64,000 nt of DNA from Candidatus Aminicenantes bacterium UBA6072. GTDB lineage: Bacteria > Acidobacteriota > Aminicenantia > UBA2199. A program made the translations under genes and the position numbers. Below, in pieces: positions 1-52,304 of the stretch. Under the pieces are notes generated by a model. It did no database searches, had not been told where the DNA came from, and was given only the letters and a program-made list of their open reading frames with translations. The DNA lies in assembly GCA_002436105.1 (NCBI GenBank), contig DIXU01000017.1, forward strand, positions 26,015 through 90,014, given 5' to 3'. Within the stretch, counting starts at the first letter, position 1; each line of letters opens with the position of its first letter.

Positions 1-1
1 G

Positions 2-1072
2 GTGGTGTTCCGGCAGCTGCGCTTCATCCAGGACAAAAACCTGGGCTTCGAGAGAGACCAGGTGCTGGTGCTGCAGAACGCCCATCTGCTGGACAAGCAG
101 GCCGAAGCGTTCAAGAACGAGATGCTGAAGCATCCGGGTGTGGTCAGCGCCACGATATCGGGATTTCTCCCCGTGCCTCCTTCCAACCGCGACAACAGCG
201 CTCTGTTCCCCAAAGGCGCCATAGAAAGCAGCCGCACGGTCATGGCCCAGAATTGGCGCATCGATCCCGACTACATCAAAACCATGGGCATGAATATCGC
301 GGCCGGCCGGGATTTCGCCAAGGAGCGCCCCGCCGACCGGGAGGCCGTGATCATCAACCAGGCCGCGGCCCGCCAGTTCGGCTGGCGGGAGCCGCGGGGC
401 CGGCAGATCAGCTTTCCCCAAGACAGCCAATTAAAGTCATTCCGCGACCGGACCGTGATCGGCGTGGTCGAGGATTTCCACTTCGATTCCCTGCGCAGCC
501 CCATCGGCCCGCTGGTGATGTTCCTGGGCGAGAGCAACGACCGGATATCGTTTCGCTTCCAGGCCCGCCAGACCACCGCGGTGCTCGCCGGCTTGAAGCG
601 GCTATGGCAGCGTTTCGCTCCCGGTCAACCCTTTGAATATGCTTTCATGGACGAGCGTTTTGCCGAGCTCTATGGCGCGGAACTACGCCTGGGCACGATC
701 CTCGGCGTGTTCTCAGCCCTGGCCATCCTGGTCGCCTGCCTGGGCCTGCTGGCCCTGGCCTCGTTCATGGCCGAGCGCCGCACCAAGGAGATCGGCATCC
801 GCAAGGTCCTGGGAGCGAGCGTTGCAGAAATCACTCTCCTGCTCTCGCGCGAATTCGTCAAATGGGTAGTCATCGCCGCCCTGATCGCCTGGCCCTTGGC
901 TTTTTATGCAATGAATCGCTGGCTCCGGGGATTTGCCTACCGCACCGACGTCAGTATCGGCTTGTTCATGCTTTCCAGCCTATTGGTCCTGCTGATCGCC
1001 CTGTTGACAGTAAGTTTCCAGGCCGTCCGCGCCGCCCGCGCCAACCCGGTCGACAGCCTGAGGTACGAGTGA
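2..1072 (+). CDS. ABC transporter permease, FtsX/MacB family (C-terminal part; 5' end lies outside the window)
   Basis: ORF runs off the window start. Ends with the ANPVDSLRYE tail and FtsX-type TM helices shared with the downstream paralogs. Confidence 0.8.
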   Translation: MVFRQLRFIQDKNLGFERDQVLVLQNAHLLDKQAEAFKNEMLKHPGVVSATISGFLPVPPSNRDNSALFPKGAIESSRTVMAQNWRIDPDYIKTMGMNIAAGRDFAKERPADREAVIINQAAARQFGWREPRGRQISFPQDSQLKSFRDRTVIGVVEDFHFDSLRSPIGPLVMFLGESNDRISFRFQARQTTAVLAGLKRLWQRFAPGQPFEYAFMDERFAELYGAELRLGTILGVFSALAILVACLGLLALASFMAERRTKEIGIRKVLGASVAEITLLLSREFVKWVVIAALIAWPLAFYAMNRWLRGFAYRTDVSIGLFMLSSLLVLLIALLTVSFQAVRAARANPVDSLRYE

Positions 1073-1085
1073 CCCGAGGTGAAAT

Positions 1086-3497
1086 ATGTTCAGAAACTAT
1101 TTACTGACCGCCTGGCGCAACATCGTCCGCCACAAGGGGTACTCCCTGATCACCATCGCCGGGTTCGCGCTGGGACTGGCCTGCTGCCTGACGATCATGC
1201 TGTACATCCTGGACGAGATGTCCTACGATCGTTTCTATCCCAACGCCGACCGCACGGTCCGCATCGACGTCGACGCATCCTGGGCCGACAACACGGCGAG
1301 CATGGCCACCACCAGCGCGCCCCTGGCCGCCCTGATCCGGCGCGAGATCCCCGAGGTCGAGGCCGTCACCCGCTTCCGATACTATGGGGCTCCGGTGCTG
1401 CGCCACGGTGAAAAGTGCTTCAGCGAAGAGCGCTTTTTTTTCGCCGACCCCACCTTCTTCGACGTGTTCTCCGTTTCCTTCATCCAGGGCGACCCCCGGC
1501 ATGCCCTCGCGCAGCCCAATGCCGTCGCCATCAGCCTTTCCATGGCCCGCAAGTATTTCGGCTCCGCTGAAGCGCTGGGCAAGGTGCTGACCGCCGACAA
1601 CCGCCGGGACTACATCGTCAGCGGGGTTTTCGCCGACCTGCCGCCGCAGACCCACTTTCATTACGACTTCATCGCTCCCTTCGGCAACCGCAGGGACACT
1701 CAGGTGGACAGCTATGCCACCAACAACAATTTCAGCACCTATCTCAGGCTGCGGCCCGACATCACCATCACCCGGTTCGCGGCCAAACTCGACCGCCTGG
1801 TACAAACCTTCGCCCACCCCGAGCTCGAAAAGCTGTTCGGCAACAGCTGGGCGAAGCTGACGCAAGGGGGGGCGTATTTCCGCTGGCTGCCCCGGCCCCT
1901 GACCGATATCCACCTGCGCTCCCACCGCGATTTCGAGATCGAGACCAACTCGGACATCCGTTATGTTTATGTCTTCAGCCTGATCGCTTTCGCCATCTTC
2001 GTGCTCGCCTGCGTCAACTTCATCAACCTGACGACCGCCCGCGCCACCACCCGGGCCCGCGAGGTGGGCATCCGCAAGAGCATCGGCTCTAGCCGCGGCG
2101 AGCTGGTGCGGCAATTTTTCAGCGAGATCCTGCTGCTGGTGTTCCTGGCCGTCCTGATCGCCGTGGTCCTGGCCCAGCTGCTTTCGCCGTATCTTGGCCT
2201 GTCCGCGGAAAAAGGCGCGCCGACGGCCGTTCTCGCCAACCGCTCCCTGCTGCCGCTGCTGGGCGGGCTGCTGCTCCTGAGCAGCCTGCTGGCCGGCGCG
2301 TATCCCGCTTTCCTGCTGTCGTCATTCAAGCCGGCGGCCGTGCTGAAAGGCGACCCGCTCATGAGCAAGAAGTCGACCCTGCGCGGCCTGCTGGTCGTCC
2401 TGCAGTTTTCCGTTTCGATCATCATGATCATCGGCACGCTGGTGGTCAGCCGGCAGCTGCATTTCATGCAGGACCGCGATCTCGGCTTCGGCAAGGAGCA
2501 GGTGCTGGTCATTCGCAAGGCGAACGACCTGGGCAAGGGGGTTCGCGCCTTCAAGCAGGAATTGCTGGCCCGCCCGGACGTCGTGTCCGTCAGCTCCGCG
2601 AGCCATTTGATGGGCGATCCCGAGTTCGGCGATGAGCTTTACAAGAATCCCGACGCTCCCGCCGCCCAGCTGATGAAACTGCAGCGGCTGTTCTGCGACG
2701 AGAATTTCGCCAGGGTCTTTCAGCTGCGCCTGGCCGGCGGCCGCTTCTTCGACAAGTCCCGGCCGGCCGACCGCAAGGGCATCGTCATCAACGAGGCGGC
2801 GGCCCGGGCCCTGGGAATGAGCGATCCCGCGGGAAAGCAACTGATCTCGATGGGCGGGGAGAGGATCCCCGTCCTGGGCGTGGTCAAGGACTTCCATTTT
2901 CAATCCCTGCGCCAGAGAATCCTGCCCATGGCCATCAATTACTGGGGCGAAGACGCCTTCGGCCCGCTGCTGGCGGTGCGCATCGCGACACCCGACATGC
3001 GGCAAGCGCTGGCGGGCATCCGGCGCATCTGGGAACGCCACAGCCGCGGCCAGTCCTTTGATTTCCAGTTTTTCGACGATCGCTTCGCCAGGGTCTATGC
3101 GGCCGAATCGCGGCTTTCCGGGCAGCTGCTCGCTTTCTCGATCCTGGCCATCGTCATTGCCTGCCTGGGGCTCCTCGGGCTTTCAATCTTCATCGTCCGC
3201 CAGCGTACCAAGGAGATCGGCATCCGCAAGGTGCTGGGCGCCTCCATGACGAGGATCAGCTGGCTGCTGTCGGGGGAATTCCTCAAGCATGTCCTCCTGG
3301 CCAGCGTCATCGCCTGCCCCATCGCCTATTTCCTCATGAAGCGCTGGCTGGGCGACTTTGCCTTCCGCATCGGGCTCGATGCCGGGCCCTTTGCCTTGGC
3401 TGTCCTGATCACCGTGGGCGTGAGCCTCGCGACCATCGGCGTGCAGGTCGTGCGCGCGGCGCGCGCCAACCCCGTCGACAGTCTGAGATATGAATGA
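1086..3497 (+). CDS. MacB-like ABC transporter permease with duplicated FtsX domains (~800 aa)
   Basis: 803-aa ORF. N-terminal motif M-x-NYLK/LTAWRNI-x-HKGYS, two FtsX-like 4-TM blocks each preceded by a large extracytoplasmic domain, C-terminal ANPVDSLRYE. A 13-nt gap separates it from the upstream paralog. Confidence 0.85.
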   Translation: MFRNYLLTAWRNIVRHKGYSLITIAGFALGLACCLTIMLYILDEMSYDRFYPNADRTVRIDVDASWADNTASMATTSAPLAALIRREIPEVEAVTRFRYYGAPVLRHGEKCFSEERFFFADPTFFDVFSVSFIQGDPRHALAQPNAVAISLSMARKYFGSAEALGKVLTADNRRDYIVSGVFADLPPQTHFHYDFIAPFGNRRDTQVDSYATNNNFSTYLRLRPDITITRFAAKLDRLVQTFAHPELEKLFGNSWAKLTQGGAYFRWLPRPLTDIHLRSHRDFEIETNSDIRYVYVFSLIAFAIFVLACVNFINLTTARATTRAREVGIRKSIGSSRGELVRQFFSEILLLVFLAVLIAVVLAQLLSPYLGLSAEKGAPTAVLANRSLLPLLGGLLLLSSLLAGAYPAFLLSSFKPAAVLKGDPLMSKKSTLRGLLVVLQFSVSIIMIIGTLVVSRQLHFMQDRDLGFGKEQVLVIRKANDLGKGVRAFKQELLARPDVVSVSSASHLMGDPEFGDELYKNPDAPAAQLMKLQRLFCDENFARVFQLRLAGGRFFDKSRPADRKGIVINEAAARALGMSDPAGKQLISMGGERIPVLGVVKDFHFQSLRQRILPMAINYWGEDAFGPLLAVRIATPDMRQALAGIRRIWERHSRGQSFDFQFFDDRFARVYAAESRLSGQLLAFSILAIVIACLGLLGLSIFIVRQRTKEIGIRKVLGASMTRISWLLSGEFLKHVLLASVIACPIAYFLMKRWLGDFAFRIGLDAGPFALAVLITVGVSLATIGVQVVRAARANPVDSLRYE

Positions 3498-3569
3498 AGT
3501 TGCAGAGCGCAAAGCGCTTCTTTGCTATGCGCTATGCTCTCTGCGCTATGCAATTGCTAGAGGCAACCC

Positions 3570-6005
3570 ATGTTTAATAACTATCTGAAAGTCGCCTGGC
3601 GGAATATCATCCTCCACAAAGGCTATTCATTCCTGAATGTCTTCGGCCTGGCCGTGGGCATGGCCTGCGCCCTGTTCGTCCTATTCTGGGTCCAGGACGA
3701 ACTGAGTTTCGACCGCTTCCACGCCAACGCCGGCACCCTTTACCGGGTCGAACAGGATCAAGCGACCGGCCAGGGAAAGTTCCACGTCAACCTCACGCCG
3801 TATCCCCTGGGGCCGGCCTTGAAGGCGGAGATCCCTGAAATAAAGGAAGCGACGCGGGCCGCCTTTCCGGGGGATTTGCTGGTTCGCTACGGGGAGAACG
3901 CTTTTTTCGAGAGCCGGGTGCTCGCCGTCGACCCCCAGGTTTTCCGGATGTTCACCTTTCCGCTGCTCAAGGGCGACCCGGCGACCGTCCTCAACCGGCC
4001 CGCTTCCCTGGTGATCAGCGAAAACATGGCCAGGAAATATTTCGGCTCCGCCGAACCCATGGGCAAGAACGTGACCATCAACAACGCCCATGCCTTCACG
4101 GTCACCGGCGTCATGAAGAACCTTCCCCTGAACTCCTCATTGTCGTTCGACATGCTGGTCCCCTTCGATTTCGTCAAGACCCTGGGTCAATACAACGATT
4201 CCTTGGGGAGAAATTTCATCTGGACCTTTGTCCAGCTTCATCCTCAAGGCCATGCCGCCACGACCGGAGCAAAGATCTCCCGGCTGGTCACGAACCGGAT
4301 CGTCGCCGAAATCGGAAGCGACCCCGAACTGCAAAAGCGGATGCAGGGCGATCCGGCCCTGCGAAAACGTTTTGAGAATTACCGCGGTCCGGACTTTTCG
4401 CTCATGCCCCTGGTCGACCTGAAGCTGTTCGCTCATTTCGGCTTCAGCCGCAATAACATGGGCATCCAGTACGTGGTGGCCTTCAGCATCATCGCCCTCT
4501 TCGTCCTGCTCATCGCCTGCATCAACTTCATGAACCTGGCCACGGCCCGCTCGGTCAACCGGGCCAGGGAGGTCGGTCTGCGCAAGGTCGTCGGCGCCCG
4601 GCGCAGAAGCATCATCGGCCAGTTTTACAGCGAATCGATCCTGACCGCCCTCCTGGCCGCGGCGGCCTCGTTCGTTCTCGTGCTTCTTTTTTTGCCGGTT
4701 TTCAATGGCCTTTCCGGAAAAACGATGACGCTCGCATCCCTGTGGCAGGGGAAATCCCTGCTGGGAATCCTGGCCGTCACCCTTTTTACCGGGATCGTCG
4801 CCGGCAGCTACCCGGCCCTTTTCCTTTCCTCATTCCAGCCCGCCAAGGTCCTGAAAGCCGGCAGGAGCGGCGGCGCCAAGGGCGCCTTGCTGCGCAAGAG
4901 CCTGGTCGTTCTCCAGTTCGGCATATCCATCCTCCTGCTCATCGGCATGGGGGTTGTCGCGCGCCAGGTCGACTATATGAGAAACAAGAAGCTCGGCTAC
5001 GACAAGGATCAACTGATCTACCTGCCGCTGCGCGGCGAGACATTTTCCTCCTACGCCGCCCTCAAGGAGCAGCTGCTCCGCAATCCCCGGGTCATGAACG
5101 TAACGGCGACCCACCAGGAGCCGACATCCATCGGCAGCAACGGCGGCGGGGCCGACTGGGACGGCAAGGACCCCGGCCAGAAATTCCTGATCGGCAATGC
5201 GTCGGTCGATTTCGATTATCCCGAGACCCTGAAGATCGAGATGGCGGCCGGCAGAACGTTTTCCAGGAAATTCGCCATGGACAGCGGCAAGTCCTGGATG
5301 GTCAATGAAGAGGTGACGAAGCTGATGGGGCTTGACCCCGCCGCGGCGGTCGGGAAAAGATTCACTTGGGGAGTGGAGGGAACGATCGTCGGGGTCATGA
5401 AAAATTTTCATTACCAGTCGGTCCGCAGCGCCATCGAGCCGCTGGCCGTGATCGTCGCTCCGGAAAATTTCCGTTTTGCCATCGTCCGCCTCAAGGCGGG
5501 AGAGGTTCCGGCCTCCCTGCAGGACGTCAGGAAAACCTGGCAACGCGTGTTCCCGCAGTACCCTTTCGAATACCGTTTCTTCGATGAAGATTTCGGCCGG
5601 ATGTACCAGGCCGACGAAAGCATGGGCTCGCTGCTGAAGGCATTCGCCGGCCTGGCCGTGATCATCGCCTGCCTGGGGTTGTTCGGCCTGGCTTCCTACA
5701 CGGCGGAGCAGCGGACCAAGGAGATCGGCGTGCGCAAGTTTTTGGGGGCGTCTTCCCCGGGCATCGTCCTGCTTTTTTCGAAACAGTTCGCCAAATGGGT
5801 CCTGCTGGCCAACCTGCTGGCCTGGCCTTGCGCCTATATCCTGACAAAAAACTGGCTCCAGGGATTCGCCTACCGGTCGACCGTCGCCTGGTGGCTGTTC
5901 GCCCTGACCGGTGCCGGGACCCTGATCATTGCCCTGCTGACCGTGAGTTTCCAGGCCGTCCGCGCCGCCCGCGCCAACCCGGTGGACAGTTTGAGGTACG
6001 AATAA
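3570..6005 (+). CDS. MacB-like double-FtsX ABC permease (paralog)
   Basis: 811-aa ORF with the same N-terminal (MFNNYLKVAWRNIILHKGYS) and C-terminal (ANPVDSLRYE) signatures. Confidence 0.85.
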   Translation: MFNNYLKVAWRNIILHKGYSFLNVFGLAVGMACALFVLFWVQDELSFDRFHANAGTLYRVEQDQATGQGKFHVNLTPYPLGPALKAEIPEIKEATRAAFPGDLLVRYGENAFFESRVLAVDPQVFRMFTFPLLKGDPATVLNRPASLVISENMARKYFGSAEPMGKNVTINNAHAFTVTGVMKNLPLNSSLSFDMLVPFDFVKTLGQYNDSLGRNFIWTFVQLHPQGHAATTGAKISRLVTNRIVAEIGSDPELQKRMQGDPALRKRFENYRGPDFSLMPLVDLKLFAHFGFSRNNMGIQYVVAFSIIALFVLLIACINFMNLATARSVNRAREVGLRKVVGARRRSIIGQFYSESILTALLAAAASFVLVLLFLPVFNGLSGKTMTLASLWQGKSLLGILAVTLFTGIVAGSYPALFLSSFQPAKVLKAGRSGGAKGALLRKSLVVLQFGISILLLIGMGVVARQVDYMRNKKLGYDKDQLIYLPLRGETFSSYAALKEQLLRNPRVMNVTATHQEPTSIGSNGGGADWDGKDPGQKFLIGNASVDFDYPETLKIEMAAGRTFSRKFAMDSGKSWMVNEEVTKLMGLDPAAAVGKRFTWGVEGTIVGVMKNFHYQSVRSAIEPLAVIVAPENFRFAIVRLKAGEVPASLQDVRKTWQRVFPQYPFEYRFFDEDFGRMYQADESMGSLLKAFAGLAVIIACLGLFGLASYTAEQRTKEIGVRKFLGASSPGIVLLFSKQFAKWVLLANLLAWPCAYILTKNWLQGFAYRSTVAWWLFALTGAGTLIIALLTVSFQAVRAARANPVDSLRYE

Positions 6006-6020
6006 GTCAAGGAGGATCCC

Positions 6021-8423
6021 ATGAGCAGAAATTATTTGAAATTGGCCCTGCGCGTTATCCGCCGCCAGAAGGGGTATTCGCTCATCAACACGATCGGCCT
6101 GGCCATCGGCATGGCCTGCTGCCTGCTGATCATGCTCTGGGTGCAAAACGAGCTTTCATATGATCGCTTCCATGATAAAGGAGACCGCATCTTCCGGGTG
6201 TTCCAGGAGCTCACCCTGAATGACCGGGTACGAACCGCCCCTGAAACTGGCGCCATGATGGGCCCGGCCGCAATCCAGTCGATTCCCGAGGCCGAAGCGG
6301 CCGCTCGCATCCTTCCCATGGCGGACACCACCGTCAAGTACGGCGAGAAGGAATTTCGCGAGAATCATATCCTGTTCACCGACTCGGAGATATTTTCCGT
6401 TTTCAGTTTTCCCCTGGTCTCCGGACATTCTGCTACGGCGTTGACGGCGCCCTATACGGTTGTGCTTTCCGAAAAGACGGCCCGCAAGTACTTCGGCGCC
6501 GAAAACCCGCTCGGTAAAGTGCTTCAATTTGGGGGCGGCCACGCGTATTCCGTCACCGGCGTCATGAAGGATGTGCCCCGCAATTCTCATTTGACGTTTG
6601 ACATTCTCTGCTCGTTCGCCAGCTATGCGAAAGAGAACGAATACAATGCGTCCTATTGGGGGAACATGGAGACGTATACCTATTTCTTGCTGGCTCCGGG
6701 GGCTGACAGCCGTTCTTTTCTGGCCAAGCTGAACCGCCTGAGCGACGAGAATATCGGCAATAAATTGAAGAAGATCAACGGAGGCCTGAAGGTATTCCTG
6801 CAGCCACTGCGCGACATTCACCTGCATTCGGGTTTTGAATCCGACATGGCCGAGATCAACGACATAAAGACCGTGATCCTGTTCTCCGGAATCGCCCTGT
6901 TCATCCTGCTTATCGCCTGCATCAATTTCATCAATCTCGCGACCGCCCGCTTCGCCAACCGCGCTTTGGAAGTGGGACTGCGCAAGACCATGGGCGCCAG
7001 CCGCAGCTCCCTGGTCCTGCACTTTTTCGTCGAGACGTTCGTTGTCGCCATGCTGGCCGCCGTACTGGCCATCCTGCTGACAGCCCTGGCCCTGCCCGTG
7101 CTGAATTCCATTGCCGGCCAGGAGTTCCCTTACTCCGCCCTCTCGCAGCCCCTCTTTCTCCTGAGCGTCTTCCTCTTCACGGCCATGGTCGGCGTTCTCG
7201 CCGGCAGTTATCCGGCCTTCTTCCTTTCCTCTTTCGCCCCGGTGCAGACCATGAAGGGCAAGCTCAAGGCCGGCGCGGCCAGCGCCACCTTCCGCAGGAT
7301 CCTGGTGGTCGGGCAGTTCACGGTCTCCATCGCCCTGATCATCGGCACCCTCACCGTTTTCAAGCAGCTCCGTTTCATCCAGAACAAAAATCTGGGATTC
7401 ACCAAGGAGCAGGTGATGGTGCTGCCGCTGCCCGATAGAATGGCGGTAACGCGGGAGACGGTGCGGGAGGAATTCGCCGCCGTAAATGGGATCACAAACG
7501 CGGCGATATCATCGGACGTACCGGGCGTTGACATCAACATGAACAATTACATTCCTCAAGGAAAAACCGAAAGCGAAGGGGTGCTGATGCAGACGATGGC
7601 TGTGGATGACCATTTCCTGACCACCTTGGGGATGACAATCGTGAAAGGCCGGAATTTTTCTGGGGACATGAAAACAGATGCCAACGAAGCCCTTCTGATC
7701 AACGAGACCGCCGCGGACCGCTTGGGCTGGCAGGACCCCATCGGGAAAATCGTGACCCGCCCCGCCTTCTCGAATGGAAAACACGTTTCTATTAAAAGGA
7801 AGATCGTGGGGGTGGTGAAGGACTTCCACACCCTTTCCCTGCATCAGAAGATCGAGCCCCTGGTCATGGACAACTCTTCTTGGGGATTGCGCTTTTTATC
7901 ACTGCGTTTTGAAGGCCAACGCCTTCCTGAACTCATCACTGCTGTGAAGGCAAAGTGGCGGCAATTCTTTCCCGCGATAGGTTTCGATCCTTTCTTTCTG
8001 GATGAGGCTTTCGCCCGGAGATACCAAGCCGAGGAACGGCTCAACAAGATCTTCAGCTCTTTTGCCATCCTGGCCATCTTCATTTCCTGCCTGGGATTGT
8101 TCGGCCTGGCCGCTTACATGACGGAGAGGCGGACCAAGGAGGTGGGCATCCGCAAGGTGCTCGGGGCGCCGGTTTCCGGCATCGTGCTTCTGTTGTCGCG
8201 TGAATTCAGCATATGGGTGCTGGCCGCCAACCTCGTCTCCTGGCCACTGGCCTATCATTTCCTCACCCGCTGGCTGGAAGGCTTCGCCTACCATGCCCGC
8301 ATCGGCATCGGCATCTTCCTGGTATCTGGCTTTTCCGTCCTGCTCATCGCCCTGCTGACCGTGAGTTTCCAGGCCATTCGCGCCGCCCGCGCCAACCCGG
8401 TCGACAGCCTGAGGTACGAATGA
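6021..8423 (+). CDS. MacB-like double-FtsX ABC permease (paralog)
   Basis: 800-aa ORF with the same architecture. GGAGG RBS upstream (caaggaggatcccATG). Confidence 0.85.
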   Translation: MSRNYLKLALRVIRRQKGYSLINTIGLAIGMACCLLIMLWVQNELSYDRFHDKGDRIFRVFQELTLNDRVRTAPETGAMMGPAAIQSIPEAEAAARILPMADTTVKYGEKEFRENHILFTDSEIFSVFSFPLVSGHSATALTAPYTVVLSEKTARKYFGAENPLGKVLQFGGGHAYSVTGVMKDVPRNSHLTFDILCSFASYAKENEYNASYWGNMETYTYFLLAPGADSRSFLAKLNRLSDENIGNKLKKINGGLKVFLQPLRDIHLHSGFESDMAEINDIKTVILFSGIALFILLIACINFINLATARFANRALEVGLRKTMGASRSSLVLHFFVETFVVAMLAAVLAILLTALALPVLNSIAGQEFPYSALSQPLFLLSVFLFTAMVGVLAGSYPAFFLSSFAPVQTMKGKLKAGAASATFRRILVVGQFTVSIALIIGTLTVFKQLRFIQNKNLGFTKEQVMVLPLPDRMAVTRETVREEFAAVNGITNAAISSDVPGVDINMNNYIPQGKTESEGVLMQTMAVDDHFLTTLGMTIVKGRNFSGDMKTDANEALLINETAADRLGWQDPIGKIVTRPAFSNGKHVSIKRKIVGVVKDFHTLSLHQKIEPLVMDNSSWGLRFLSLRFEGQRLPELITAVKAKWRQFFPAIGFDPFFLDEAFARRYQAEERLNKIFSSFAILAIFISCLGLFGLAAYMTERRTKEVGIRKVLGAPVSGIVLLLSREFSIWVLAANLVSWPLAYHFLTRWLEGFAYHARIGIGIFLVSGFSVLLIALLTVSFQAIRAARANPVDSLRYE

Positions 8424-8496
8424 TGGAGACCGGAGGCCGGAGACCGCAGACCGGAAGATGAAGGAAATCCAAAAAAGCTTGAGTCGTTAGGAGGCA

Positions 8497-8766
8497 ATGA
8501 TGAAAGAGATCACGTTGCAAATCCCCGTGCTGGAGGCCGAACAGAACGTCGAGATCGACGTGCGCATCAACGGCCGGCGCCAGGTGATGAAATACCGCGT
8601 CGAGATCGTGGAGTTCGAGCCCGACGCCGCGGAAAAGAAGGACACCGTCTCCATGCTCAAGCAGGTGATCCGCGAGCACGATCCCGACTGGCAGCTGGTG
8701 CAGATCGGCGCCCCGCTCGACCACAAGATCCCGGTCACCTTCCGCCGGAAGCAGTCTTCCCAGTGA
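8497..8766 (+). CDS. small acidic hypothetical protein (89 aa) inside the ABC cluster
   Basis: Strong RBS (taggaggcaATGATG). No signal peptide or TM helix. Normal amino-acid composition, unlike the GC-artefact ORFs elsewhere. No family recognised. Confidence 0.5.
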   Translation: MMKEITLQIPVLEAEQNVEIDVRINGRRQVMKYRVEIVEFEPDAAEKKDTVSMLKQVIREHDPDWQLVQIGAPLDHKIPVTFRRKQSSQ

Positions 8767-8959
8767 GCAACGAAGCCAATGTCCGGAAGCGGACACCCAT
8801 TGTCCCGATTGCGGACAAGCCGGGGCAACGGGAAACGGCCGCCCCGGAAGCGGGCCGCAAACCTTGCGCCCTGAAGGGTTTTCATCGCCGATTCCCGCTC
8901 CGAATTGGCATGCTTATTGCATGACAATGATTGGGAACGATCCCCAAGGAAGGTGGCGG

Positions 8960-9177
8960 ATGAGCCTTAAGGAAATACTCATGAAGCTGGTCGAACAAAA
9001 GAGCCCGCTATTGCTTTGCGACAGCCAGAGCGAATGGGAGGCCGAGTCGCTGCTGGGTTCATTGCCCGCGCCCAGGCTGTCGGCCTCCGCCTACCTGCAG
9101 CCGGGCCTGTATATCGCCGAGATCAACGAGGGCGGCTACCTGGGGCGGGTGCTGTACAAGCTCAAGGAGAAGCCGGC

Positions 9178-9181
<4 letters not shown>
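8960..9181 (+). CDS. small hypothetical protein (73 aa), translationally coupled to the ABC ATPase
   Basis: In-frame ATG at 8960 preceded by GGAAGGTGG. Its stop (9179-9181) overlaps the ATG of the ATPase gene as ATGA. The ORF track gives a longer 8864 start. Confidence 0.45.
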
Positions 9182-9912
<731 letters not shown>

Positions 9913-10086
9913 AACAGCTCCTTTTCTTCCTGCTGCTGCTCATTGTCCTGCTGAGCACGTCCGCCTGAGGAGGCCTGAAGCATAATGAACCGCAAAACAG
10001 AGAATCGGTCTGCCGGCCGGACCGGGCCGCGGTCCCAAGGCTCACGACCCGAATCGCTCGGCCGCCGGGGCTACTGGAAGCTGCTC

Positions 10087-12540
10087 ATGCTGAAGAACAC
10101 CCTGGGTATCACGCTGCGCAGCCTGATAAAGAACAAGGGGATCTTTCTGATCAAGGTATTCGGCCTGGCGGCGGGCATCGCCTGCAGCATGGTGGTCATC
10201 CTCTACGTGGTGAACGAGCTGACCTACGACACCTACCATCCCGACCACGAGCGGATCTTCCGCATCGCCTGCCGCCGCGTCCACGACGGGGGCGAATTCA
10301 CCAATGCCTCGACCCAGGGGCCCCTGGCCGCCGCCATCAAGGAGCAGATCGGCCAGACTGAAACCGTGGCCCGCATGATCCCCCCGCTCGAGAACGCCAA
10401 GCATGTCCTGGTGGCCCGGGGCGAGAGACGCTTCTTCGAGAAGCGCGCCTGGTTCGCCGATCCCGACATTTTCAGCATCCTGAGCATTCCCTTCGTGGCG
10501 GGAAACGCCGGGAACGCCCTGGCGCGCCCGAGAACGGTCGTCATCAGCGAGAGCACGGCCCGGAAATACTTCGCCGGCCTGCCGCCGCTGGGCCGCCGCC
10601 TGACCATCGAGCTGGACTACGACACCGGAGCGGCCGTCACCGAGGATTTCGAAGTGACCGGCGTGGTCCGCGACGCCCCGGCCAACACCCACCTGAAGTA
10701 CGACATGCTGCTCTCCATGGCCACGCTGCTGACGTATGTCCCCACCCTGAACCAGGATTGGGGGGAATATCACCCCAAGTATACCTACGTGAAGCTCCGG
10801 CGCCACGTCAAGCCATCGGCCTTCACAAAACTGCTGCGCCCCTATGCGGAACGGATACGCCAGGCGTTCGCCAGGCGGGCGGGATCCCCGATGCACAAGC
10901 TCGATTTTTTCCTGCAGCCCCTGGCGTCGCTGCATATGGGCTCCAACCTGCCCGACGAGATCGAGCCGGCCGGCAATATCCTTTATGTGTACATCTATTC
11001 CTTCGCCGCCCTGCTGATCCTGCTCATCGGCGCCACCAATTTCGTCAACCTCTCCGCCACCCTCTCCACGACGCGCAGCCGCGAGGTCGGCATCCGCAAG
11101 ACGCTGGGCGGCAGCCGCGGCGACCTGGTCTGGCAATTCCTCGGCGAATCCCTGGTCATCACTCTGATCGCATTCCTGGCCGCGTTCGCCTTCCTGTCGC
11201 TGCTGCTGCGCTTTTTCAACCGCATGGCCGGCACCGCCATCGATTTTCAGGCGCTCGGCCAACCCCTGGTCCTGGCGATGCTGCTGGTTCTTTTCCTGCT
11301 GCTGGGGATCAGCGCCGGCCTGTACCCGGCCATGGTCCTTTCCCGCTTCCAGCCCGTCAGCGTCCTGAAGAACCAGGTCTTTCCCGGGATGCACGGTCAC
11401 GCCGCGCAACGCCTGCTGATCCTGGGGCAGTTCGCCATCGCCATCTTCCTGGTGGTGTGCACGCTGGTGGTGTTCCGCCAGCTGACGTTCATCAAGGGCA
11501 AGGCCCTGGGATTCGACCGCGAGCAGAAGCTGATCCTGGAGATCAAGAGCAACCAGAGCTATTTCCGCCGCAATTATGAAGCCATCAAGAGTGATTTCCT
11601 GAAAGCTCCCGGAATCGGCGCGGCCAGCGTATCCTCGACGGTGCCGGGGGAGGCCTTCGCCGGCGGCTATTCCCTGCAGAAGGGAAGCTCGTTCGGCATC
11701 CTGAACTCGAAGAGGCTGAAGGTCATCACCGTGGACCACGATTTCATCCCCACCTATGGCATCCGCATGACGGCCGGACGGGCGTTTCAGAAAGCGTCGG
11801 GAAACGACGAACAAGGCGCCTACATCGTCAACGAGGCCGGCGCCCGTGAACTTGGCCTGACGCCGGAAAGAGTCCTGGGCACGCAGTGGACCTCGCATTA
11901 TCACCGCAAGACCAAGACGATCGTCGGCGTGACCGCCGATTTTCACTTCCTGGGCATGAAGGACGAGGCTGAACCCCTGGTCCTGGACATCGAAAAATCA
12001 CTGCTGCGGGTCATGACCCTGTCGCTGGACGCGCGGCGCGTTTCCCAAAGCCTGGCCGCCGTAAAGGAAACATGGCGCCGTCATTTTCCCGGCGTCCCGT
12101 TCGAATATTCCTTCCTGGACGAAGCCTTCGGCCGGGTCTACCAGTACGAGGAGCGCATGGGCAACCTGCTGGGGCTGGTCTCCGGCCTGGGCATCGCCAT
12201 CGCCTTCCTCGGGTTGTACGGCATGATCGCGTTCACCATGCGCATGCGGAGGAAAGAGATCGGCATCCGCAGGGTCCTCGGCGCGACATCGACATCCGTC
12301 GCCCTGCTGCTGACCCGGCAATTCGTCTCGCTGGTGTTCCTGGCGGGCTTCCTGGCGGTCCCCCTGGCCTGGATGGCCACGATCCTGTGGCTGCAGGGCT
12401 TCGCCTACCGCATCCAACCGGGATTTGCCGTATTCGCCTTCGCCTTTCTCGCCACCTTCGCGATCGCCATGGCCGCGGTGCTGCTGCAGGCGCTGCGCTC
12501 CGCCCGCGACAACCCGGTGGACGCGCTGCGCAGCGAATAA
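10087..12540 (+). CDS. MacB-like double-FtsX ABC permease (paralog). An alternative start at 9985 is possible.
   Basis: Same architecture; ends DNPVDALRSE. M35 (MLKNTLGITLRSLIKNKG) matches the paralog N-terminal motif better than the Arg/Gly-rich 9985 extension. Confidence 0.8.
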   Translation: MLKNTLGITLRSLIKNKGIFLIKVFGLAAGIACSMVVILYVVNELTYDTYHPDHERIFRIACRRVHDGGEFTNASTQGPLAAAIKEQIGQTETVARMIPPLENAKHVLVARGERRFFEKRAWFADPDIFSILSIPFVAGNAGNALARPRTVVISESTARKYFAGLPPLGRRLTIELDYDTGAAVTEDFEVTGVVRDAPANTHLKYDMLLSMATLLTYVPTLNQDWGEYHPKYTYVKLRRHVKPSAFTKLLRPYAERIRQAFARRAGSPMHKLDFFLQPLASLHMGSNLPDEIEPAGNILYVYIYSFAALLILLIGATNFVNLSATLSTTRSREVGIRKTLGGSRGDLVWQFLGESLVITLIAFLAAFAFLSLLLRFFNRMAGTAIDFQALGQPLVLAMLLVLFLLLGISAGLYPAMVLSRFQPVSVLKNQVFPGMHGHAAQRLLILGQFAIAIFLVVCTLVVFRQLTFIKGKALGFDREQKLILEIKSNQSYFRRNYEAIKSDFLKAPGIGAASVSSTVPGEAFAGGYSLQKGSSFGILNSKRLKVITVDHDFIPTYGIRMTAGRAFQKASGNDEQGAYIVNEAGARELGLTPERVLGTQWTSHYHRKTKTIVGVTADFHFLGMKDEAEPLVLDIEKSLLRVMTLSLDARRVSQSLAAVKETWRRHFPGVPFEYSFLDEAFGRVYQYEERMGNLLGLVSGLGIAIAFLGLYGMIAFTMRMRRKEIGIRRVLGATSTSVALLLTRQFVSLVFLAGFLAVPLAWMATILWLQGFAYRIQPGFAVFAFAFLATFAIAMAAVLLQALRSARDNPVDALRSE

Positions 12541-12704: not shown

Positions 12705-13346
12705 TCAGAAGGAGATGCCGGCGCAGAGGAAGGTCTTGAACAGGTGGTAGCGCGCCTTGGGATCGTCGTTGCGCTCGTGGTTGCTGAAGGGCATGAAGAA
12801 GTGGAGCCCCAGGCTGGCGTCGACGGCGCGCAAATATTTCTTGAATTCCTGCAGCCGCAGGCGGGCGGTCGCGTACAGCCCGTATTGCACGCGGTGCAGG
12901 ATGCTGGCCTTCTCGACTTCCTCCTTGTACACGCCCGAGACGTGGGTATAGCGGTTGCTCAGAAAGAGATAGAAGAAGGGGCCGGCCGAAAAATCAAGGG
13001 CAAAGGCCAGCGACTGCCTGGGCAGCGACAGGGGAATCGTCAGCACCTTGCCGACGCCCATGCCCAGGGTGGTTTTTTTCGTGTCCCAAATCCCGTTCTC
13101 GATCGCCAGCCCCTTCCCCGAGATGATGTTGCCGAAGACGAGGAACTCGTGGCGGTGGGGATGGAACGAGGAGAGGACCAGCAGCGTGTCGCGGAAAGAG
13201 GGCTGCGGCTCCTTGTTCCAGATATCGCCGCTGGTAAAGACCGTGAGGCGCTCGCTGGAAAGGAACGAGAGGGAAAGGCCCAGGTCGGCGAACAGCGAGG
13301 CGGCCAGACCCAGCCCCAGGAACAGAAAGACGGTTTTCTTGCTCAT
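12705..13346 (-). CDS. small outer-membrane beta-barrel-like protein (hypothetical)
   Basis: Signal peptide MSKKTVFLFLGLGLAASLFA. Alternating amphipathic strands. C-terminal aromatic residue (…GISF). The ORF track's longer N-terminus is an extension. Confidence 0.5.
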   Translation of the reverse strand: MSKKTVFLFLGLGLAASLFADLGLSLSFLSSERLTVFTSGDIWNKEPQPSFRDTLLVLSSFHPHRHEFLVFGNIISGKGLAIENGIWDTKKTTLGMGVGKVLTIPLSLPRQSLAFALDFSAGPFFYLFLSNRYTHVSGVYKEEVEKASILHRVQYGLYATARLRLQEFKKYLRAVDASLGLHFFMPFSNHERNDDPKARYHLFKTFLCAGISF

Positions 13347-13362
13347 CGTTCTCTCCTTTGCC

Positions 13363-14478
13363 TCAAAGCTCCCGCACGGCAAGCTTGACGCCGATCCGGG
13401 AGCGGGCCAGGGCCAGGTCACGCTCCAGCGCCTGGTTGGTTTCCCGCGCCCCGGGCAGGTCGCGGGTGGTTTCCTCGGTCTTTCTTTCGCGCTTGAAGAC
13501 CTTGGGCAGCTTGCTCAGCGCCGACAGGCTGAAGCCGATGCCGGCCAGGTTGAACACCCGCCGCGTACCGTAGAGCGAGGACTTGGCGAACAGCGACGTG
13601 TCGGCGCTGTCGATGGTCGAAGTGATCAGGGTGGCGTTGACTACGAAGAAAGCGGCGCCGATCAGCAGGTCCTTGAGCACCGTCTTCTTGAAGAGTCCCT
13701 TGTCGAAACGCGTGCGCTGCGAAATGACTTTCGTCTCCGTCTCTTGTTCGGGCTGCGGCGCGCGCCCCTTGAGCGCCAGCGTCCCGGACAGGGGGTCGAA
13801 CTCGACTTCGGCCGGGACGTCGTATTCGAGCTCGACAACGAAGTACTTCTCGATCGTCCGCTCCGGGGCGCCGCGCGGAGTCAGCAGCAGGCGGAACGGG
13901 TGGCTGGCACTGTGAAAAAAATCGCTGCCTGCCGGCAGCCGCACCGTCTCGATGCCGGCACCCAGCACACCCTTGGCCAGCAGCGCGCCGTCCCGGGCCA
14001 GGAGCTGAAAGTCGCAGGGCATCGAGGCCTGCAGCCGCAGCTTCAGCTCGGCAGGGGGATCGAAATAGGCGACCGAGGTATGCTCCGGCGCCAGCGAAAG
14101 CTCCCACAGGACGGGAAAATCCCTCCTCCACGACAACCGGAAATCGTTGATCTTTCTGCGGTCCGGGCCGGGCAGGAACGCCAGGTTGACCTCGGTGGCG
14201 CGGAATTCGCCGAGATACTTGTTCATCCAGAACAGCTCGGCCTGGGCATTGCCGGTCCGGGAATGGCAGTAGCCGATGATCAGGCTGGCCGCCGCCTTGT
14301 CCTTGTCGCTCAACAGCGGGAATCGCCCCTGCAGGGATTCGATCAGCCGCGGATGGTCGCTCTCGCTGGCGATGAGCCGCCGGGCCTCCGCCTTCCATTC
14401 CGCAGCGGGCGCCGCGGCCCAGGCAGCCTGGAACAGAAGAAGGGCCGAAAGGAACAGGATCGATCGTTTCACGGCCAT
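13363..14478 (-). CDS. secreted hypothetical protein (371 aa)
   Basis: Cleavable signal peptide (MAVKRSILFLSALLLFQAAWAAAPA) and normal composition. Lies directly upstream of and co-oriented with the OMP-like gene. Confidence 0.5.
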   Translation of the reverse strand: MAVKRSILFLSALLLFQAAWAAAPAAEWKAEARRLIASESDHPRLIESLQGRFPLLSDKDKAAASLIIGYCHSRTGNAQAELFWMNKYLGEFRATEVNLAFLPGPDRRKINDFRLSWRRDFPVLWELSLAPEHTSVAYFDPPAELKLRLQASMPCDFQLLARDGALLAKGVLGAGIETVRLPAGSDFFHSASHPFRLLLTPRGAPERTIEKYFVVELEYDVPAEVEFDPLSGTLALKGRAPQPEQETETKVISQRTRFDKGLFKKTVLKDLLIGAAFFVVNATLITSTIDSADTSLFAKSSLYGTRRVFNLAGIGFSLSALSKLPKVFKRERKTEETTRDLPGARETNQALERDLALARSRIGVKLAVREL

Positions 14479-14579
14479 CGGGTCCTCCTTGCGGGATCGG
14501 AAAAATCATAGCACAGGGAAAAAACAAATCAAACCGTGGCTGGAGTTTTCCCCGGGAGGACGCCTCGCGTCCGGGAAGT

Positions 14580-49700: not shown

Positions 49701-49814
49701 GGGCATGAGGTCGATCGGCAAACGGCTGACCGCCACCAGGCCGATGGCCACGATGGCCAGGGTGAGCATGACGGTGAAAACGGGCCGGCGGATGGAAAAC
49801 CCGGAAATGTTCAT
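46734..49814 (-). CDS. RND efflux transporter permease (AcrB/HAE1 family)
   Basis: 1026 aa. 12-TM RND architecture. N-terminus [22 protein letters not shown]…. Confidence 0.9.
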
Positions 49815-51034: not shown

Positions 51035-51143
51035 GCTGATTTCCCTGCCTGCCCGCTACCGGCCGGAACGGCATGCCGGAGCACCCGGTGCGGCGCTGTC
51101 TGCGTGAGCTCTATGTACGGAAAATAAACCAAAAAGGTTATGC

Positions 51144-51188
51144 TGTCAACCGCTGCCGGTTGACAAAACGGGCGGCAAAGCCGAGAAT
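51144..51188 (+). promoter_or_regulatory. perfect 9-4-9 palindrome TGTCAACCG-ctgc-CGGTTGACA overlapping a TTGACA-17-GAGAAT promoter
   Basis: Palindrome 51144-51165. Its right arm is the -35 (51160-51165), with -10 GAGAAT at 51183-51188, 18 nt before the PAP2 ATG. Lies in the divergent region with the RND operon. Confidence 0.4.
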
Positions 51189-51205
51189 GGCGAAAAAACA
51201 GCGAG

Positions 51206-52228: not shown

Positions 52229-52304
52229 CCGGTTGGCGACCGGTAACCCGTCCGCAGTCCGGTTGACTTTTGTCCGGGCTTTGCCTACCATGAGCCGGCC
52301 ATCC

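What the first reader, a model, noticed from the sequence alone, without database searches (positions are those of the whole stretch)
8497..9181. Two small acidic cytoplasmic proteins inserted between permease 4 and the ATPase, the second ATGA-coupled to the ATPase
The 89-aa (8497-8766) and 73-aa (8960-9181) proteins have good RBSs, no signal peptide or TM, and ordinary composition. They are separated by a 190-bp untranslated gap. They sit exactly where regulators or accessory subunits of ABC systems are usually encoded, but match none I know (PadR, GntR, anti-sigma, lipoprotein). They could be accessory subunits, substrate-like peptides or immunity components of this transporter family.
Basis: inference. 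Interest (0 to 1): 0.6.

Follow-up and report, generated by a model that had tools for sequence, protein, structure and literature searches.

The report
Two orphan small proteins of an efflux pump
Two small, soluble, strongly conserved proteins of unknown family are regular parts of a sigma-54-controlled MacB-type efflux pump cassette in Aminicenantes and related phyla; no cytoplasmic helper protein has been described for this pump class, so they are good candidates for experiments.

Summary
Both ORFs are real genes. Each is conserved across phyla, substitutions fall mainly at third codon positions, and neither has a TM segment or signal peptide. "Acidic" is overstated (pI 6.1 and 5.3), and ORF A probably starts at 8500.

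Neither matches Pfam, NCBIfam, PADLOC, PHROGs or PDB sequences. ORF B folds confidently (pLDDT 93) with no Foldseek neighbour in the PDB. The ORF A model is poor (pLDDT 62).

- 64 of 80 ORF B copies, from distinct species genomes, lie within 1.5 kb of a MacB-type permease or ATPase.
- 61 of 82 ORF A copies lie within 500 bp of one.
- The two are often an adjacent b-a pair, 15-27 nt apart.
- 13 of 14 complete cassettes (MFP-ATPase1-[a, b, permeases]-ATPase2-OEP, usually beside a divergent kinase and sigma-54 activator) carry both.

The 190-bp "untranslated gap" is a conserved internal sigma-54 promoter (8906-8921) with two palindromic activator sites (8780-8818).

Best reading: they are cytoplasmic accessory or regulatory components acting on the pump's cytoplasmic side, similar in logic to MlaB. 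This is inferred, not shown. Cargo or immunity roles are unlikely.

Verdict: a new variant of a known kind, of moderate interest.

The parts
2..1072 (+). C-terminal part of a duplicated MacB_PCD/FtsX permease, cut by the window start
   Evidence: Pfam FtsX 1.3e-13 and MacB_PCD 1.9e-07
1086..3497 (+). Duplicated MacB-type permease, 803 aa (paralogue 2)
   Evidence: Pfam MacB_PCD 4.5e-33 and FtsX 6.5e-27, two stretches each
3570..6005 (+). Duplicated MacB-type permease, 811 aa (paralogue 3)
   Evidence: Pfam MacB_PCD 1e-35 and FtsX 8.7e-19
6021..8423 (+). Duplicated MacB-type permease, 800 aa (paralogue 4, 'permease 4')
   Evidence: Pfam MacB_PCD 3.1e-37 and FtsX 3.3e-18. NCBIfam ADOP scores 307.6 bits, below the 622.3 cut-off.
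8489..8494 (+). Shine-Dalgarno AGGAGG of ORF A
   Evidence: Read directly from the sequence. It is 5 nt from ATG 8500.
8497..8766 (+). ORF A: small soluble protein of an unnamed family, 89 aa (probable true start 8500, 88 aa). The low-confidence model shows five beta strands, with little regular structure between residues 38 and 64.
   Evidence: 1009 relatives, 17 invariant residues; pLDDT 62; neighbourhood; third-position substitutions
8780..8795 (+). Palindrome TGTCCG-N4-CGGACA, candidate upstream activator site 1 for a sigma-54 enhancer-binding protein
   Evidence: only match in 64 kb, expected 0.19. The same motif is conserved upstream of the ORF B promoter in related loci.
8800..8818 (+). 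Palindrome TTGTCC-N7-GGACAA, candidate upstream activator site 2
   Evidence: A second ...GCGGACA half-site is conserved in related loci.
8906..8921 (+). Sigma-54 (-24/-12) promoter TGGCATGCTTATTGCA, ending 38 nt before the ORF B start
   Evidence: Only exact match in the window, expected 0.13. The same motif lies 38-49 nt upstream of ORF B in 13 species genomes and in further metagenome loci. Across all loci, 114 of 121 matches are on the cassette strand.
8946..8956 (+). Shine-Dalgarno region AAGGAAGGTGG of ORF B
   Evidence: Read directly from the sequence. It is conserved as ccaaggaaggtg in close relatives.
8960..9181 (+). ORF B: small soluble alpha/beta protein of an unnamed family, 73 aa. 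Its stop overlaps the ATPase start (ATGA).
   Evidence: 20 invariant residues; pLDDT 93.1, pTM 0.81; no PDB neighbour; 38 representative clusters in 1.84 billion; neighbourhood
9178..9912 (+). MacB/LolD-type ABC ATPase of class 'T2', with D-loop GNLN
   Evidence: Pfam ABC_tran 3.2e-32. The best NCBIfam models (DarD, LolD, MacB) all score below cut-off. D-loop class.
9985..12540 (+). Duplicated MacB-type permease, 851 aa (paralogue 5)
   Evidence: Pfam MacB_PCD 5.8e-24 and FtsX 1.3e-23

Best explanation
ORF A and ORF B are two unrelated, conserved, soluble cytoplasmic proteins. They are regular, co-regulated parts of a sigma-54 and two-component-controlled, MacAB-TolC-like (Type VII ABC) efflux cassette.

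The cassette contains a periplasmic adaptor (MFP), two different ATPases (T1 and T2), one to many duplicated permeases and an outer-membrane factor (OEP). In this window, ORF A ends the upstream transcription unit. An internal sigma-54 promoter with two activator sites in the 193-nt gap then drives ORF B, the translationally coupled ATPase T2 and the fifth permease.

The most likely mechanism is inferred, not shown. A and B, probably acting together, would dock on the cytoplasmic face of the pump, either on the ATPase subunits or on the conserved cytoplasmic parts of the permeases. There they would control assembly or ATPase activity. This would let one ATPase set serve several permease paralogues or would gate its activity. 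MlaB does this kind of job for MlaF in the MlaFEDB transporter.
For: SHOWN
- Both are coding and under purifying selection.
- Both are soluble, with no TM segment or signal peptide.
- ORF B has a confident globular model.
- Linkage of ORF B: 64 of 80 copies, from distinct species genomes, lie within 1.5 kb of a MacB-type permease or ATPase. The 16 'lone' loci (about 270 kb in total) contain only one such gene.
- Linkage of ORF A: 61 of 82 copies lie within 500 bp of a permease or ATPase, and 38 lie directly after a permease.
- The linkage reaches Marinimicrobia and Stygibacter.
- A and B are adjacent in 36 of 82 ORF A loci. In 24 the order is b then a, and in 23 of these the gap is 15-27 nt.
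- 13 of 14 complete MFP...OEP cassettes carry both.
- In the minimal form, b and a sit between the two ATPase genes: MFP-T1-b-a-T2-OEP.
- In the window and its closest relatives, ORF B abuts or overlaps the ATPase start.
- Co-regulation: the sigma-54 motif and palindromes in front of ORF B are conserved. A divergent sigma-54 activator lies within 800 bp of 33 of 41 MFP genes (Pfam domains of one example).

INFERRED
- There is a single a and a single b per cassette but several permease paralogues. This points to a shared partner, either the ATPases or a conserved cytoplasmic surface.
- MlaB is a precedent for a small cytoplasmic auxiliary protein needed for assembly and activity of an ABC transporter (PMC5016091).
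Against: - There is no direct evidence of physical contact with any pump component.
- The positions of a and b inside the array vary: after T1, between permeases, or before T2. No single fixed neighbour points to a partner.
- About 20% of ORF B copies (16 of 80) and 9 of 82 ORF A copies sit in unrelated contexts. This is unusual for a stoichiometric subunit and fits a factor that acts in trans.
- There is no sequence or fold similarity to MlaB/STAS or to any known ABC regulatory domain.
- The ORF A model is unreliable.
Confidence: 0.4

Rival explanations
1. A and B are regulators of expression, not pump subunits. As a small partner pair they would feed back on the sigma-54 activator or its kinase, acting as anti-activator and anti-anti-activator as PspA does on PspF or HrpV and HrpG do on HrpS. 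Alternatively, they would relay transporter activity to the kinase, as in Bce-type flux sensing.
For: - The cassette is sigma-54-dependent, with an adjacent kinase and activator in 33 of 41 cases.
- ORF B is often the first gene behind a sigma-54 promoter (33 promoters).
- A and B form a pair.
- About 20% of ORF B copies act from unlinked sites, as a trans-acting regulator could.
- One singleton protein fuses a TrmB winged-helix domain to the C-terminal two-thirds of ORF B.
- The PspA and HrpV/HrpG precedents are from my own knowledge.
Against: - The activator has a receiver domain, so control by phosphorylation already explains its regulation.
- A and B are embedded among structural genes, most often next to permease or ATPase genes and not next to the regulator genes.
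- No DNA-binding or known regulator domain was found.
- The TrmB fusion is a single 839-bp contig and may be an assembly chimera.
Confidence: 0.2
2. A and/or B are cytoplasmic binding or protection proteins for the pump's substrate or inducer. They would sequester a toxic compound or act as chaperone or immunity factor, and would be co-expressed with the pump but not attached to it.
For: - They are co-regulated with an efflux cassette.
- They are soluble, globular and strongly conserved.
- They can occur away from the pump.
Against: - MacB-type pumps act on periplasmic or outer-leaflet substrates and not cytoplasmic ones (PMC5985334).
- No resemblance to any known binding or immunity family was found.
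- ORF B keeps 46-100% identity across its homologues, and 20 of its residues are invariant in the 35-sequence alignment. That fits a conserved protein partner better than a variable small molecule.
Confidence: 0.1
3. A and B are exported cargo or precursor peptides (substrate-like peptides) of the pump.
For: - They are small and encoded inside an exporter cassette.
- The best NCBIfam model for the ATPase is the darobactin exporter DarD, although below cut-off (238.7 against 375 bits).
Against: - They have no signal peptide, so they cannot reach the periplasm, where MacB-type pumps pick up substrates (PMC5985334).
- They are conserved over their full length, with no leader and variable-core pattern.
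- ORF B is a confidently folded 73-aa domain.
- They have 0 and 1 cysteines.
- No modification enzymes were found in any cassette.
Confidence: 0.05
4. A and B are unrelated passenger genes, for example a small toxin-antitoxin-like or mobile pair, that happen to sit in the array.
For: - They are a pair of small adjacent genes.
- There are weak sub-threshold Pfam hits of two ORF B homologues to PhdYeFM antitoxin (E 0.047).
Against: - The linkage holds across phyla and across many different gene orders.
- They share the pump's sigma-54 control.
- They have no PADLOC or PHROGs hit.
- A and B also occur singly inside arrays.
Confidence: 0.03

Closest known systems
MacAB-TolC and DevBCA-HgdD tripartite Type VII ABC efflux systems (context of the two ORFs)
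   Same: - The permeases have MacB_PCD and FtsX domains, and the ATPase is of the MacB/LolD/DevA type.
- Related loci have an MFP gene in front and an OEP gene behind.
   Different: - Each permease is a duplicated (2 x FtsX) polypeptide of about 800 aa with no fused ATPase, and is present in 1 to more than 5 paralogues.
- There are two distinct ATPase classes.
- Control is by sigma-54 and a two-component system.
- There are two extra soluble small proteins, which none of the MacB-type systems I know of has.
E. coli YbbAP(-TesA), a Type VII ABC system with a duplicated FtsX permease and a separate ATPase
   Same: - It has an ~800-aa permease with two FtsX halves plus a stand-alone ATPase.
- NCBIfam YbbA hits the ATPase at 8.9e-51, and YbbP hits a permease at 0.0016. 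Both are below cut-off.
   Different: - It has no permease array, no MFP/OEP partners, no sigma-54 control and no A- or B-like genes (architecture from PMC12646458, abstract).
- The window proteins fail the YbbA and YbbP cut-offs.
MlaB, the small cytoplasmic STAS-domain auxiliary subunit of the MlaFEDB ABC transporter
   Same: It is similar in logic only. MlaB is a small soluble protein encoded in the transporter operon, and it is needed for assembly and ATPase activity (PMC5016091).
   Different: - There is no sequence or fold relationship: no STAS or other Pfam hit and no PDB neighbour.
- It belongs to a different ABC class.
- Contact with the ATPase has not been tested here.
ADOP family (TIGR03434, acidobacterial duplicated orphan permeases), often found with PadR regulators
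   Same: - It has the same duplicated MacB_PCD/FtsX architecture.
- ADOP is the best NCBIfam model for the permeases (1.6e-91).
   Different: - The scores of 307.6 and 285 bits are far below the 622.3 cut-off, so this is a sister group and not ADOP proper.
- These permeases are not orphans: they have ATPase, MFP and OEP genes.
- Sigma-54 control replaces PadR.
NtrC/NifA-type sigma-54 promoters with upstream activator sequences (for the intergenic gap)
   Same: - The TGGCAY-N5-TTGCW -24/-12 element is present.
- Two dyad-symmetric sites lie about 90-125 nt upstream of the -24 element. The first site has the form TGT-N10-ACA.
- A receiver-AAA+-HTH_8 activator lies next to the cassette in relatives.
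   Different: - The site consensus TGTCCG-N4-CGGACA is not one I can assign to a characterised activator.
- No transcription start has been mapped.
- The activator gene is not in this window.

Membership tests
Type VII (MacB-type) ABC tripartite efflux cassette (the system the ORFs belong to) | Permease with a MacB periplasmic core domain and an FtsX 4-TM module | tested here: met
   Pfam MacB_PCD and FtsX hit all five permeases, with two stretches each in the four complete ones.
Type VII (MacB-type) ABC tripartite efflux cassette (the system the ORFs belong to) | Cognate MacB/LolD-type ATPase | tested here: met
   ABC_tran 3.2e-32. The best NCBIfam models are DarD, LolD, MacB and FtsE. Walker A, signature, Walker B and H-loop motifs are intact.
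Type VII (MacB-type) ABC tripartite efflux cassette (the system the ORFs belong to) | Periplasmic adaptor (MFP) and outer-membrane factor (OEP) genes | tested here: inconclusive
   They are present in related loci, and 14 complete MFP...OEP cassettes were found. They were not found next to the array in this window. The array runs off the window start, so the MFP and T1 genes are probably upstream of position 1.
ADOP family, TIGR03434 | Score at or above the curated NCBIfam cut-off of 622.3 bits | tested here: not met
   307.6 and 285 bits
   No Pfam or NCBIfam hit at E <= 1 beyond noise for the window proteins or for 26 + 35 family members.
MlaB / STAS-domain ABC auxiliary proteins | STAS fold or sequence signature | tested here: not met
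   No STAS hit in Pfam. No PDB sequence or Foldseek match.
MlaB / STAS-domain ABC auxiliary proteins | Binds the ATPase subunit and is needed for complex assembly or activity | not testable with these tools
Myb/SANT-like helix-turn-helix (lead from a PDB profile hit for ORF A) | Three-helix repeat with a recognition helix; match to the Pfam Myb model | tested here: not met
   The profile of ORF A hits MYB21 at E 8.3e-4, but only as the sum of two weak stretches (12.8 and 8.4 bits, i-Evalues 0.9 and 22). These cover helices 1-2 only. No Myb or SANT model was hit by any of 26 members.
Exported peptide, bacteriocin or RiPP precursor | Signal or leader peptide, variable core, nearby modification or processing genes | tested here: not met
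   No hydrophobic N-terminus. Conservation covers the full length. ORF B has a folded domain. No modification enzymes appear in the neighbourhoods.
Sigma-54-dependent promoter (for the 193-nt gap) | -24 GG and -12 GC elements with canonical spacing (TGGCAY-N5-TTGCW) | tested here: met
   8906-8921 is the only match in 64 kb, against 0.13 expected.
Sigma-54-dependent promoter (for the 193-nt gap) | Conserved at the same position in orthologous loci, and strand-specific | tested here: met
   The motif lies 38-49 nt upstream of ORF B in 13 species genomes and in further metagenome loci. 114 of 121 matches are on the cassette strand, lying in front of MFP, ORF B or permease genes.
Sigma-54-dependent promoter (for the 193-nt gap) | Upstream activator sites and a cognate enhancer-binding protein | tested here: met
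   The palindromes at 8780-8795 and 8800-8818 are conserved in relatives. A Response_reg/Sigma54_activat/HTH_8 protein lies next to the cassette in L009, and a divergent activator lies within 800 bp of 33 of 41 MFP genes. The activator gene itself is not in this window.
Sigma-54-dependent promoter (for the 193-nt gap) | Mapped transcription start that depends on RpoN | not testable with these tools
   This needs 5' RACE or dRNA-seq, or an rpoN mutant.

The most novel reading that the evidence does not exclude
A and B would be the first cytoplasmic accessory subunits described for the MacB/Type VII ABC superfamily. As a two-protein module, with ORF B having a fold with no Foldseek neighbour in the PDB, they would bind a heterodimeric ATPase pair. 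That pair is T1 with D-loop GNLD and T2 with D-loop GNLN. The module would decide which of several interchangeable permease paralogues is powered, or would couple pump activity to the sigma-54 two-component regulator.
Probability: 0.3. Interest if true: 0.65.

Novelty: new variant of a known kind. Interest (0 to 1): 0.5.

Why it matters
MacB-type (Type VII) ABC systems drive antibiotic and toxin efflux, lipoprotein trafficking and cell division. All described members are built from an ATPase, a permease and periplasmic partners.

A pair of conserved cytoplasmic proteins that travels with a large family of multi-permease MacB-type cassettes would add a regulatory or assembly layer on the cytoplasmic side. 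That family spans Aminicenantes, Acidobacteriota, Marinimicrobia, KSB1, Calditrichia and Ignavibacteria/Bacteroidota-type MAGs.

It would also give a handle on why these bacteria keep arrays of near-identical permeases served by only two ATPases.

Practical outcomes:
- Two protein families of roughly 160 (B) and 1000 (A) database proteins can be given a context-based annotation.
- The internal sigma-54 promoter and the TGTCCG-N4-CGGACA sites define a testable regulon.

Tried and rejected
- **Family assignment.** Pfam, NCBIfam, PADLOC and PHROGs gave only noise for the window proteins and for every alignment member. Examples are HMMR_N, HAB, HobA and PhdYeFM, all with E >= 0.003 in single members.
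- **PDB sequence profiles.** Nothing for B. For A there was a MYB21 hit at 8.3e-4. I rejected it because it is the sum of two weak partial matches that lack the recognition helix, and no Pfam Myb model supports it.
- **Fold search.**
  - ORF B (pLDDT 93): best PDB hit E 1.5 with TM <= 0.36; best BFVD hit E 0.19.
  - ORF A: best hit E 0.89, and the model is too weak to trust in any case.
  - The low-ranking Hfq and SH3-like hits for ORF B were considered as a possible Sm-like fold and rejected (TM 0.24-0.30).
- **A and B related to each other?** No. hhalign probability is 0.3%.
- **Domain fusions as a functional clue.** The exhaustive search with the ORF B profile found only stand-alone proteins. 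The exceptions were:
  - one TrmB fusion, a singleton on a short contig;
  - one gene-call run-on into a permease;
  - one repeat artefact.
- **RNA element in the gap.** There is no Rfam hit above noise, and the fold z-score is -1.8. The sigma-70 scan found nothing, and the single terminator-like hairpin is no more than chance.
- **Common alternative neighbour in the 'lone' ORF B loci.** None was found. Neighbours include DmsC, MFS, HTH-M78/Cas3, UvrA-like, DUF5916 and a histidine kinase.
- **Literature.** Nothing was found on these proteins or on small proteins in such arrays.
Full report
**1. What is at the coordinates**

Positions 1-12540 of the window hold a same-strand array of duplicated MacB_PCD/FtsX permeases of about 800 aa:
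- 2-1072 (cut by the window start)
- 1086-3497
- 3570-6005
- 6021-8423

These are followed by, in order:
- ORF A, 8497-8766
- a 193-nt gap
- ORF B, 8960-9181, whose stop overlaps the start of the ATPase as ATGA
- a MacB/LolD-type ABC ATPase, 9178-9912
- a fifth permease, 9985-12540

The genes beyond 12540 are on the other strand and unrelated (an M90 peptidase and an MFS transporter). The rest of the window is ordinary chromosome, with BamA, PFOR, DnaE, an RND pump and a tricorn-like protease. The closest genomes are Aminicenantes MAGs. ORF B is 100% identical in UBA2199, although that locus has a different number of permeases.

**2. Both ORFs are real genes**

ORF A has 41 homologues by single-sequence search and 1009 by profile search. 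All are 85-99 aa long and all are labelled 'hypothetical'. ORF B has 163 homologues.

The alignments show 17 invariant residues in A and 20 in B. The B alignment includes the N-terminal MSLKEIL and a QPGLYIAEI...GYLG.VLY block.

Against close relatives, substitutions pile up at third codon positions in the annotated frames. Against L098, for example, the counts by codon position are 10/5/26 for A and 15/10/30 for B. The long antisense ORFs listed are therefore GC-rich shadows.

Neither protein has a hydrophobic segment. The pI values are 6.1 and 5.3, so 'acidic' is an overstatement. ORF A most likely starts at the second ATG (8500), as in its 88-aa homologues.

**3. What they are not**

No model in Pfam, NCBIfam, PADLOC or PHROGs matches either protein or any of the 61 aligned family members beyond noise. 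A and B are unrelated to each other.

*ORF B*
- It folds confidently (pLDDT 93.1, pTM 0.81). The order of elements is helix, two short strands, two short helices, then a three-stranded sheet.
- It has no Foldseek neighbour in the PDB (best E 1.5, TM <= 0.36) or in BFVD.
- An exhaustive HMM search of 1.84 billion representative proteins returns only 38 clusters, essentially all stand-alone 50-90-aa proteins. ORF B is therefore a tight, isolated family.

*ORF A*
- Its model is poor (pLDDT 62), so its fold search is uninformative.
- A PDB profile hit to MYB21 (E 8.3e-4) is the sum of two weak partial matches and has no Pfam support. I reject it.

**4. The neighbourhood test**

A scan of one genome per species with the ORF B profile gave 79 loci and 80 copies.
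- 64 of 80 copies lie within 1.5 kb of a MacB-type permease or ATPase, detected with HMMs built from the window's own proteins.
- 29 of 80 copies also have ORF A in the same locus.
- The 16 'lone' loci (about 270 kb in total) contain only one such ATPase and no permease. The background rate is therefore of the order of a percent.
- The neighbours of the lone copies have nothing in common.

A metagenome scan with the ORF A profile, plus two look-ups, gave 82 loci.
- 61 of 82 copies lie within 500 bp of a permease or ATPase.
- 38 lie directly after a permease.
- 36 lie next to ORF B.
- 9 have none of these nearby.

The order b then a with a gap of only 15-27 nt recurs 23 times. A and B are thus a gene pair as well as array members.

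The linkage holds in Marinimicrobia and Stygibacter. Submitters' labels also place it in Acidobacteriota, KSB1, Calditrichia, Melioribacteraceae, Bacteroidetes and Zixibacteria.

**5. The cassette**

I added single-sequence searches for the adaptor, outer-membrane factor, activator and kinase. The recurrent architecture is a divergent histidine kinase plus receiver-type sigma-54 activator, followed by MFP - ATPase T1 - (a, b and one to many permeases, in variable order) - ATPase T2 - OEP.
- Of 14 loci that show the whole MFP...OEP span, 13 carry both a and b. The minimal form is MFP-T1-b-a-T2-OEP.
- 33 of 41 MFP genes have the divergent activator within 800 bp.
- The two ATPase classes differ consistently in the D-loop: T1 has GNLD in 63 of 68, and T2 has GNLN in 51 of 53. 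All catalytic motifs are otherwise intact. The window's ATPase is T2.
- The window shows only the distal part of such a cassette. Its MFP, T1 and regulators presumably lie upstream of position 1. The 97%-identical locus L013 has T1 three permeases upstream of ORF A.

**6. The 'untranslated gap' is a regulatory region**

- TGGCATGCTTATTGCA at 8906-8921 is a canonical sigma-54 -24/-12 element. It is the only one in 64 kb, against 0.13 expected, and it ends 38 nt before the ORF B start.
- The same element sits 38-49 nt upstream of ORF B in 13 species genomes and in many metagenome loci.
- Across all 1.96 Mb of fetched loci there are 121 matches. 114 are on the cassette strand, and they lie in front of MFP (38), ORF B (33), permease (22) or ORF A (4) genes.
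- About 90-125 nt upstream of the -24 element lie two dyads: TGTCCG-N4-CGGACA (8780-8795, unique in the window, expected 0.19) and TTGTCC-N7-GGACAA (8800-8818).
- The same pair of sites is conserved in relatives: 23 of the 33 ORF B promoters have the palindrome within 200 nt.

This is the classical enhancer layout of sigma-54 promoters (established knowledge). ORF A therefore ends one unit, and ORF B, T2 and permease 5 are driven by an internal activator-dependent promoter. No Rfam family, significant RNA fold, sigma-70 promoter or convincing terminator was found in the gap.

**7. Mechanism**

*Shown*
- A and B are soluble, strongly constrained proteins.
- They are co-inherited and co-regulated with this pump cassette.
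- They are often paired, often lie between the two ATPase genes, and in this lineage ORF B is translationally coupled to T2.

*Inferred*
- Each cassette has a single a and b but several permease paralogues, and both proteins are cytoplasmic. They most likely act on the shared cytoplasmic machinery, meaning the ATPases or the conserved cytoplasmic face of the permeases. There they would control assembly or ATPase activity.
- The precedent in logic is MlaB, a small cytoplasmic auxiliary protein required for assembly and activity of MlaFEDB (PMC5016091).
- I put this at about 0.4.

*Main rival (about 0.2): a regulatory pair feeding back on the activator or kinase*
- For: the sigma-54 context, the trans-acting 'lone' copies, and a single TrmB-ORF B fusion.
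- Against: the receiver domain of the activator, and the placement of a and b among structural genes.

*Other rivals*
- Cargo or precursor roles are close to excluded. The proteins have no signal peptide and are conserved over their whole length. ORF B has a confident folded model. MacB-type pumps do not move substrates across the cytoplasmic membrane (PMC5985334).
- Immunity or sequestration roles, or passenger genes, are possible but have no specific support.

**8. Comparison with what is known**

The context is a MacAB-TolC/DevBCA-like Type VII ABC cassette. Its permeases resemble YbbP and the ADOP family in being duplicated, but they fail both curated cut-offs.

As far as I know, none of the described MacB-type systems has cytoplasmic accessory proteins. 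Three full-text searches found nothing on these families.

I therefore rate this as a new variant of a known kind. The pump is familiar. The two added orphan components are not, and one of them has a confidently predicted fold with no detectable PDB neighbour.

**9. Limits**

- There is no evidence of physical interaction.
- The ORF A fold is unresolved.
- The more sensitive fold libraries were unavailable.
- Some fetched loci are redundant (for example L006 and L018 are the same contig).
- Taxon labels are those of the submitters.
- The extra cassette components were detected with single-sequence queries, so absences are soft.

Noticed in passing
window 9178-9912; related loci L004-L172: The cassettes carry two ATPase classes. 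T1 (next to the MFP gene) has the canonical D-loop GNLD in 63 of 68 cases. T2 (the window's ATPase, next to a/b) has GNLN in 51 of 53. All other catalytic motifs are intact. This suggests a differentiated, possibly heterodimeric, ATPase pair serving single-polypeptide duplicated permeases.
   Followed up: partly
L045:4281-4343 (also L050 and L077, same relative position): A conserved 20-aa hydrophobic mini-ORF (MKIVLWILAVLLGLLFLAFG) lies between the sigma-54 promoter and ORF B in three loci. The nucleotide sequences differ while the peptide is largely kept. It may be a small membrane peptide.
   Followed up: partly
P0269 / L173:72-434: A 120-aa protein fuses a TrmB winged-helix domain (Pfam 2.8e-18) to the C-terminal ~46 residues of ORF B. 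It is known from a single 839-bp contig, so it could be a true fusion or an assembly chimera.
   Followed up: partly
L007:8001-8216 and L023:3539-3751: Two 'lone' ORF B copies, from a Bacteroidota MAG and a Melioribacteraceae MAG, sit directly downstream of a DmsC gene. In L007 the full DMSO-reductase-type set (molybdopterin, 4Fe-4S and DmsC subunits) is upstream. No ABC genes are nearby.
   Followed up: partly
L001-L003:10317-12064; L010:15785-16222: In an Acidobacteriota lineage, ORF A at the end of the permease array is followed by a Kinase-PPPase (PF03618) gene and, where sequence extends, a LytTR response regulator.
   Followed up: no
window 8497 vs 8500: ORF A has a double ATG. Homologue lengths (88 aa, starting MKEI) and the spacing from the AGGAGG at 8489-8494 favour 8500 as the start.
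   Followed up: yes
window 9178-9912, C-terminus: The window's ATPase ends in a ~25-residue low-complexity tail rich in Gly, Pro and Lys (…GENPGTGKRKKKHPEGT) beyond the ABC domain. Its conservation was not examined.
   Followed up: no
window 12705-13421 (-) and 13418-14527 (-): Two long, 4-nt-overlapping minus-strand ORFs (238 and 369 aa) just downstream of the array have no Pfam hit at 1e-5. They overlap other long ORFs in this GC-rich region, so their reality is unchecked.
   Followed up: no
window 46734-52462 (-): A separate RND efflux operon is present: AcrB-type pump 46734-49814, HlyD-type adaptor 49811-51034, and a 438-aa ORF at 51146-52462 in the outer-membrane-factor position with no Pfam hit at 1e-5.
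   Followed up: no
L006:6253-7809 (= L018): A 518-aa TPR protein is inserted between the last permease and the sigma-54 promoter of ORF B in one Aminicenantes lineage. Similar proteins were seen in 4 loci.
   Followed up: no
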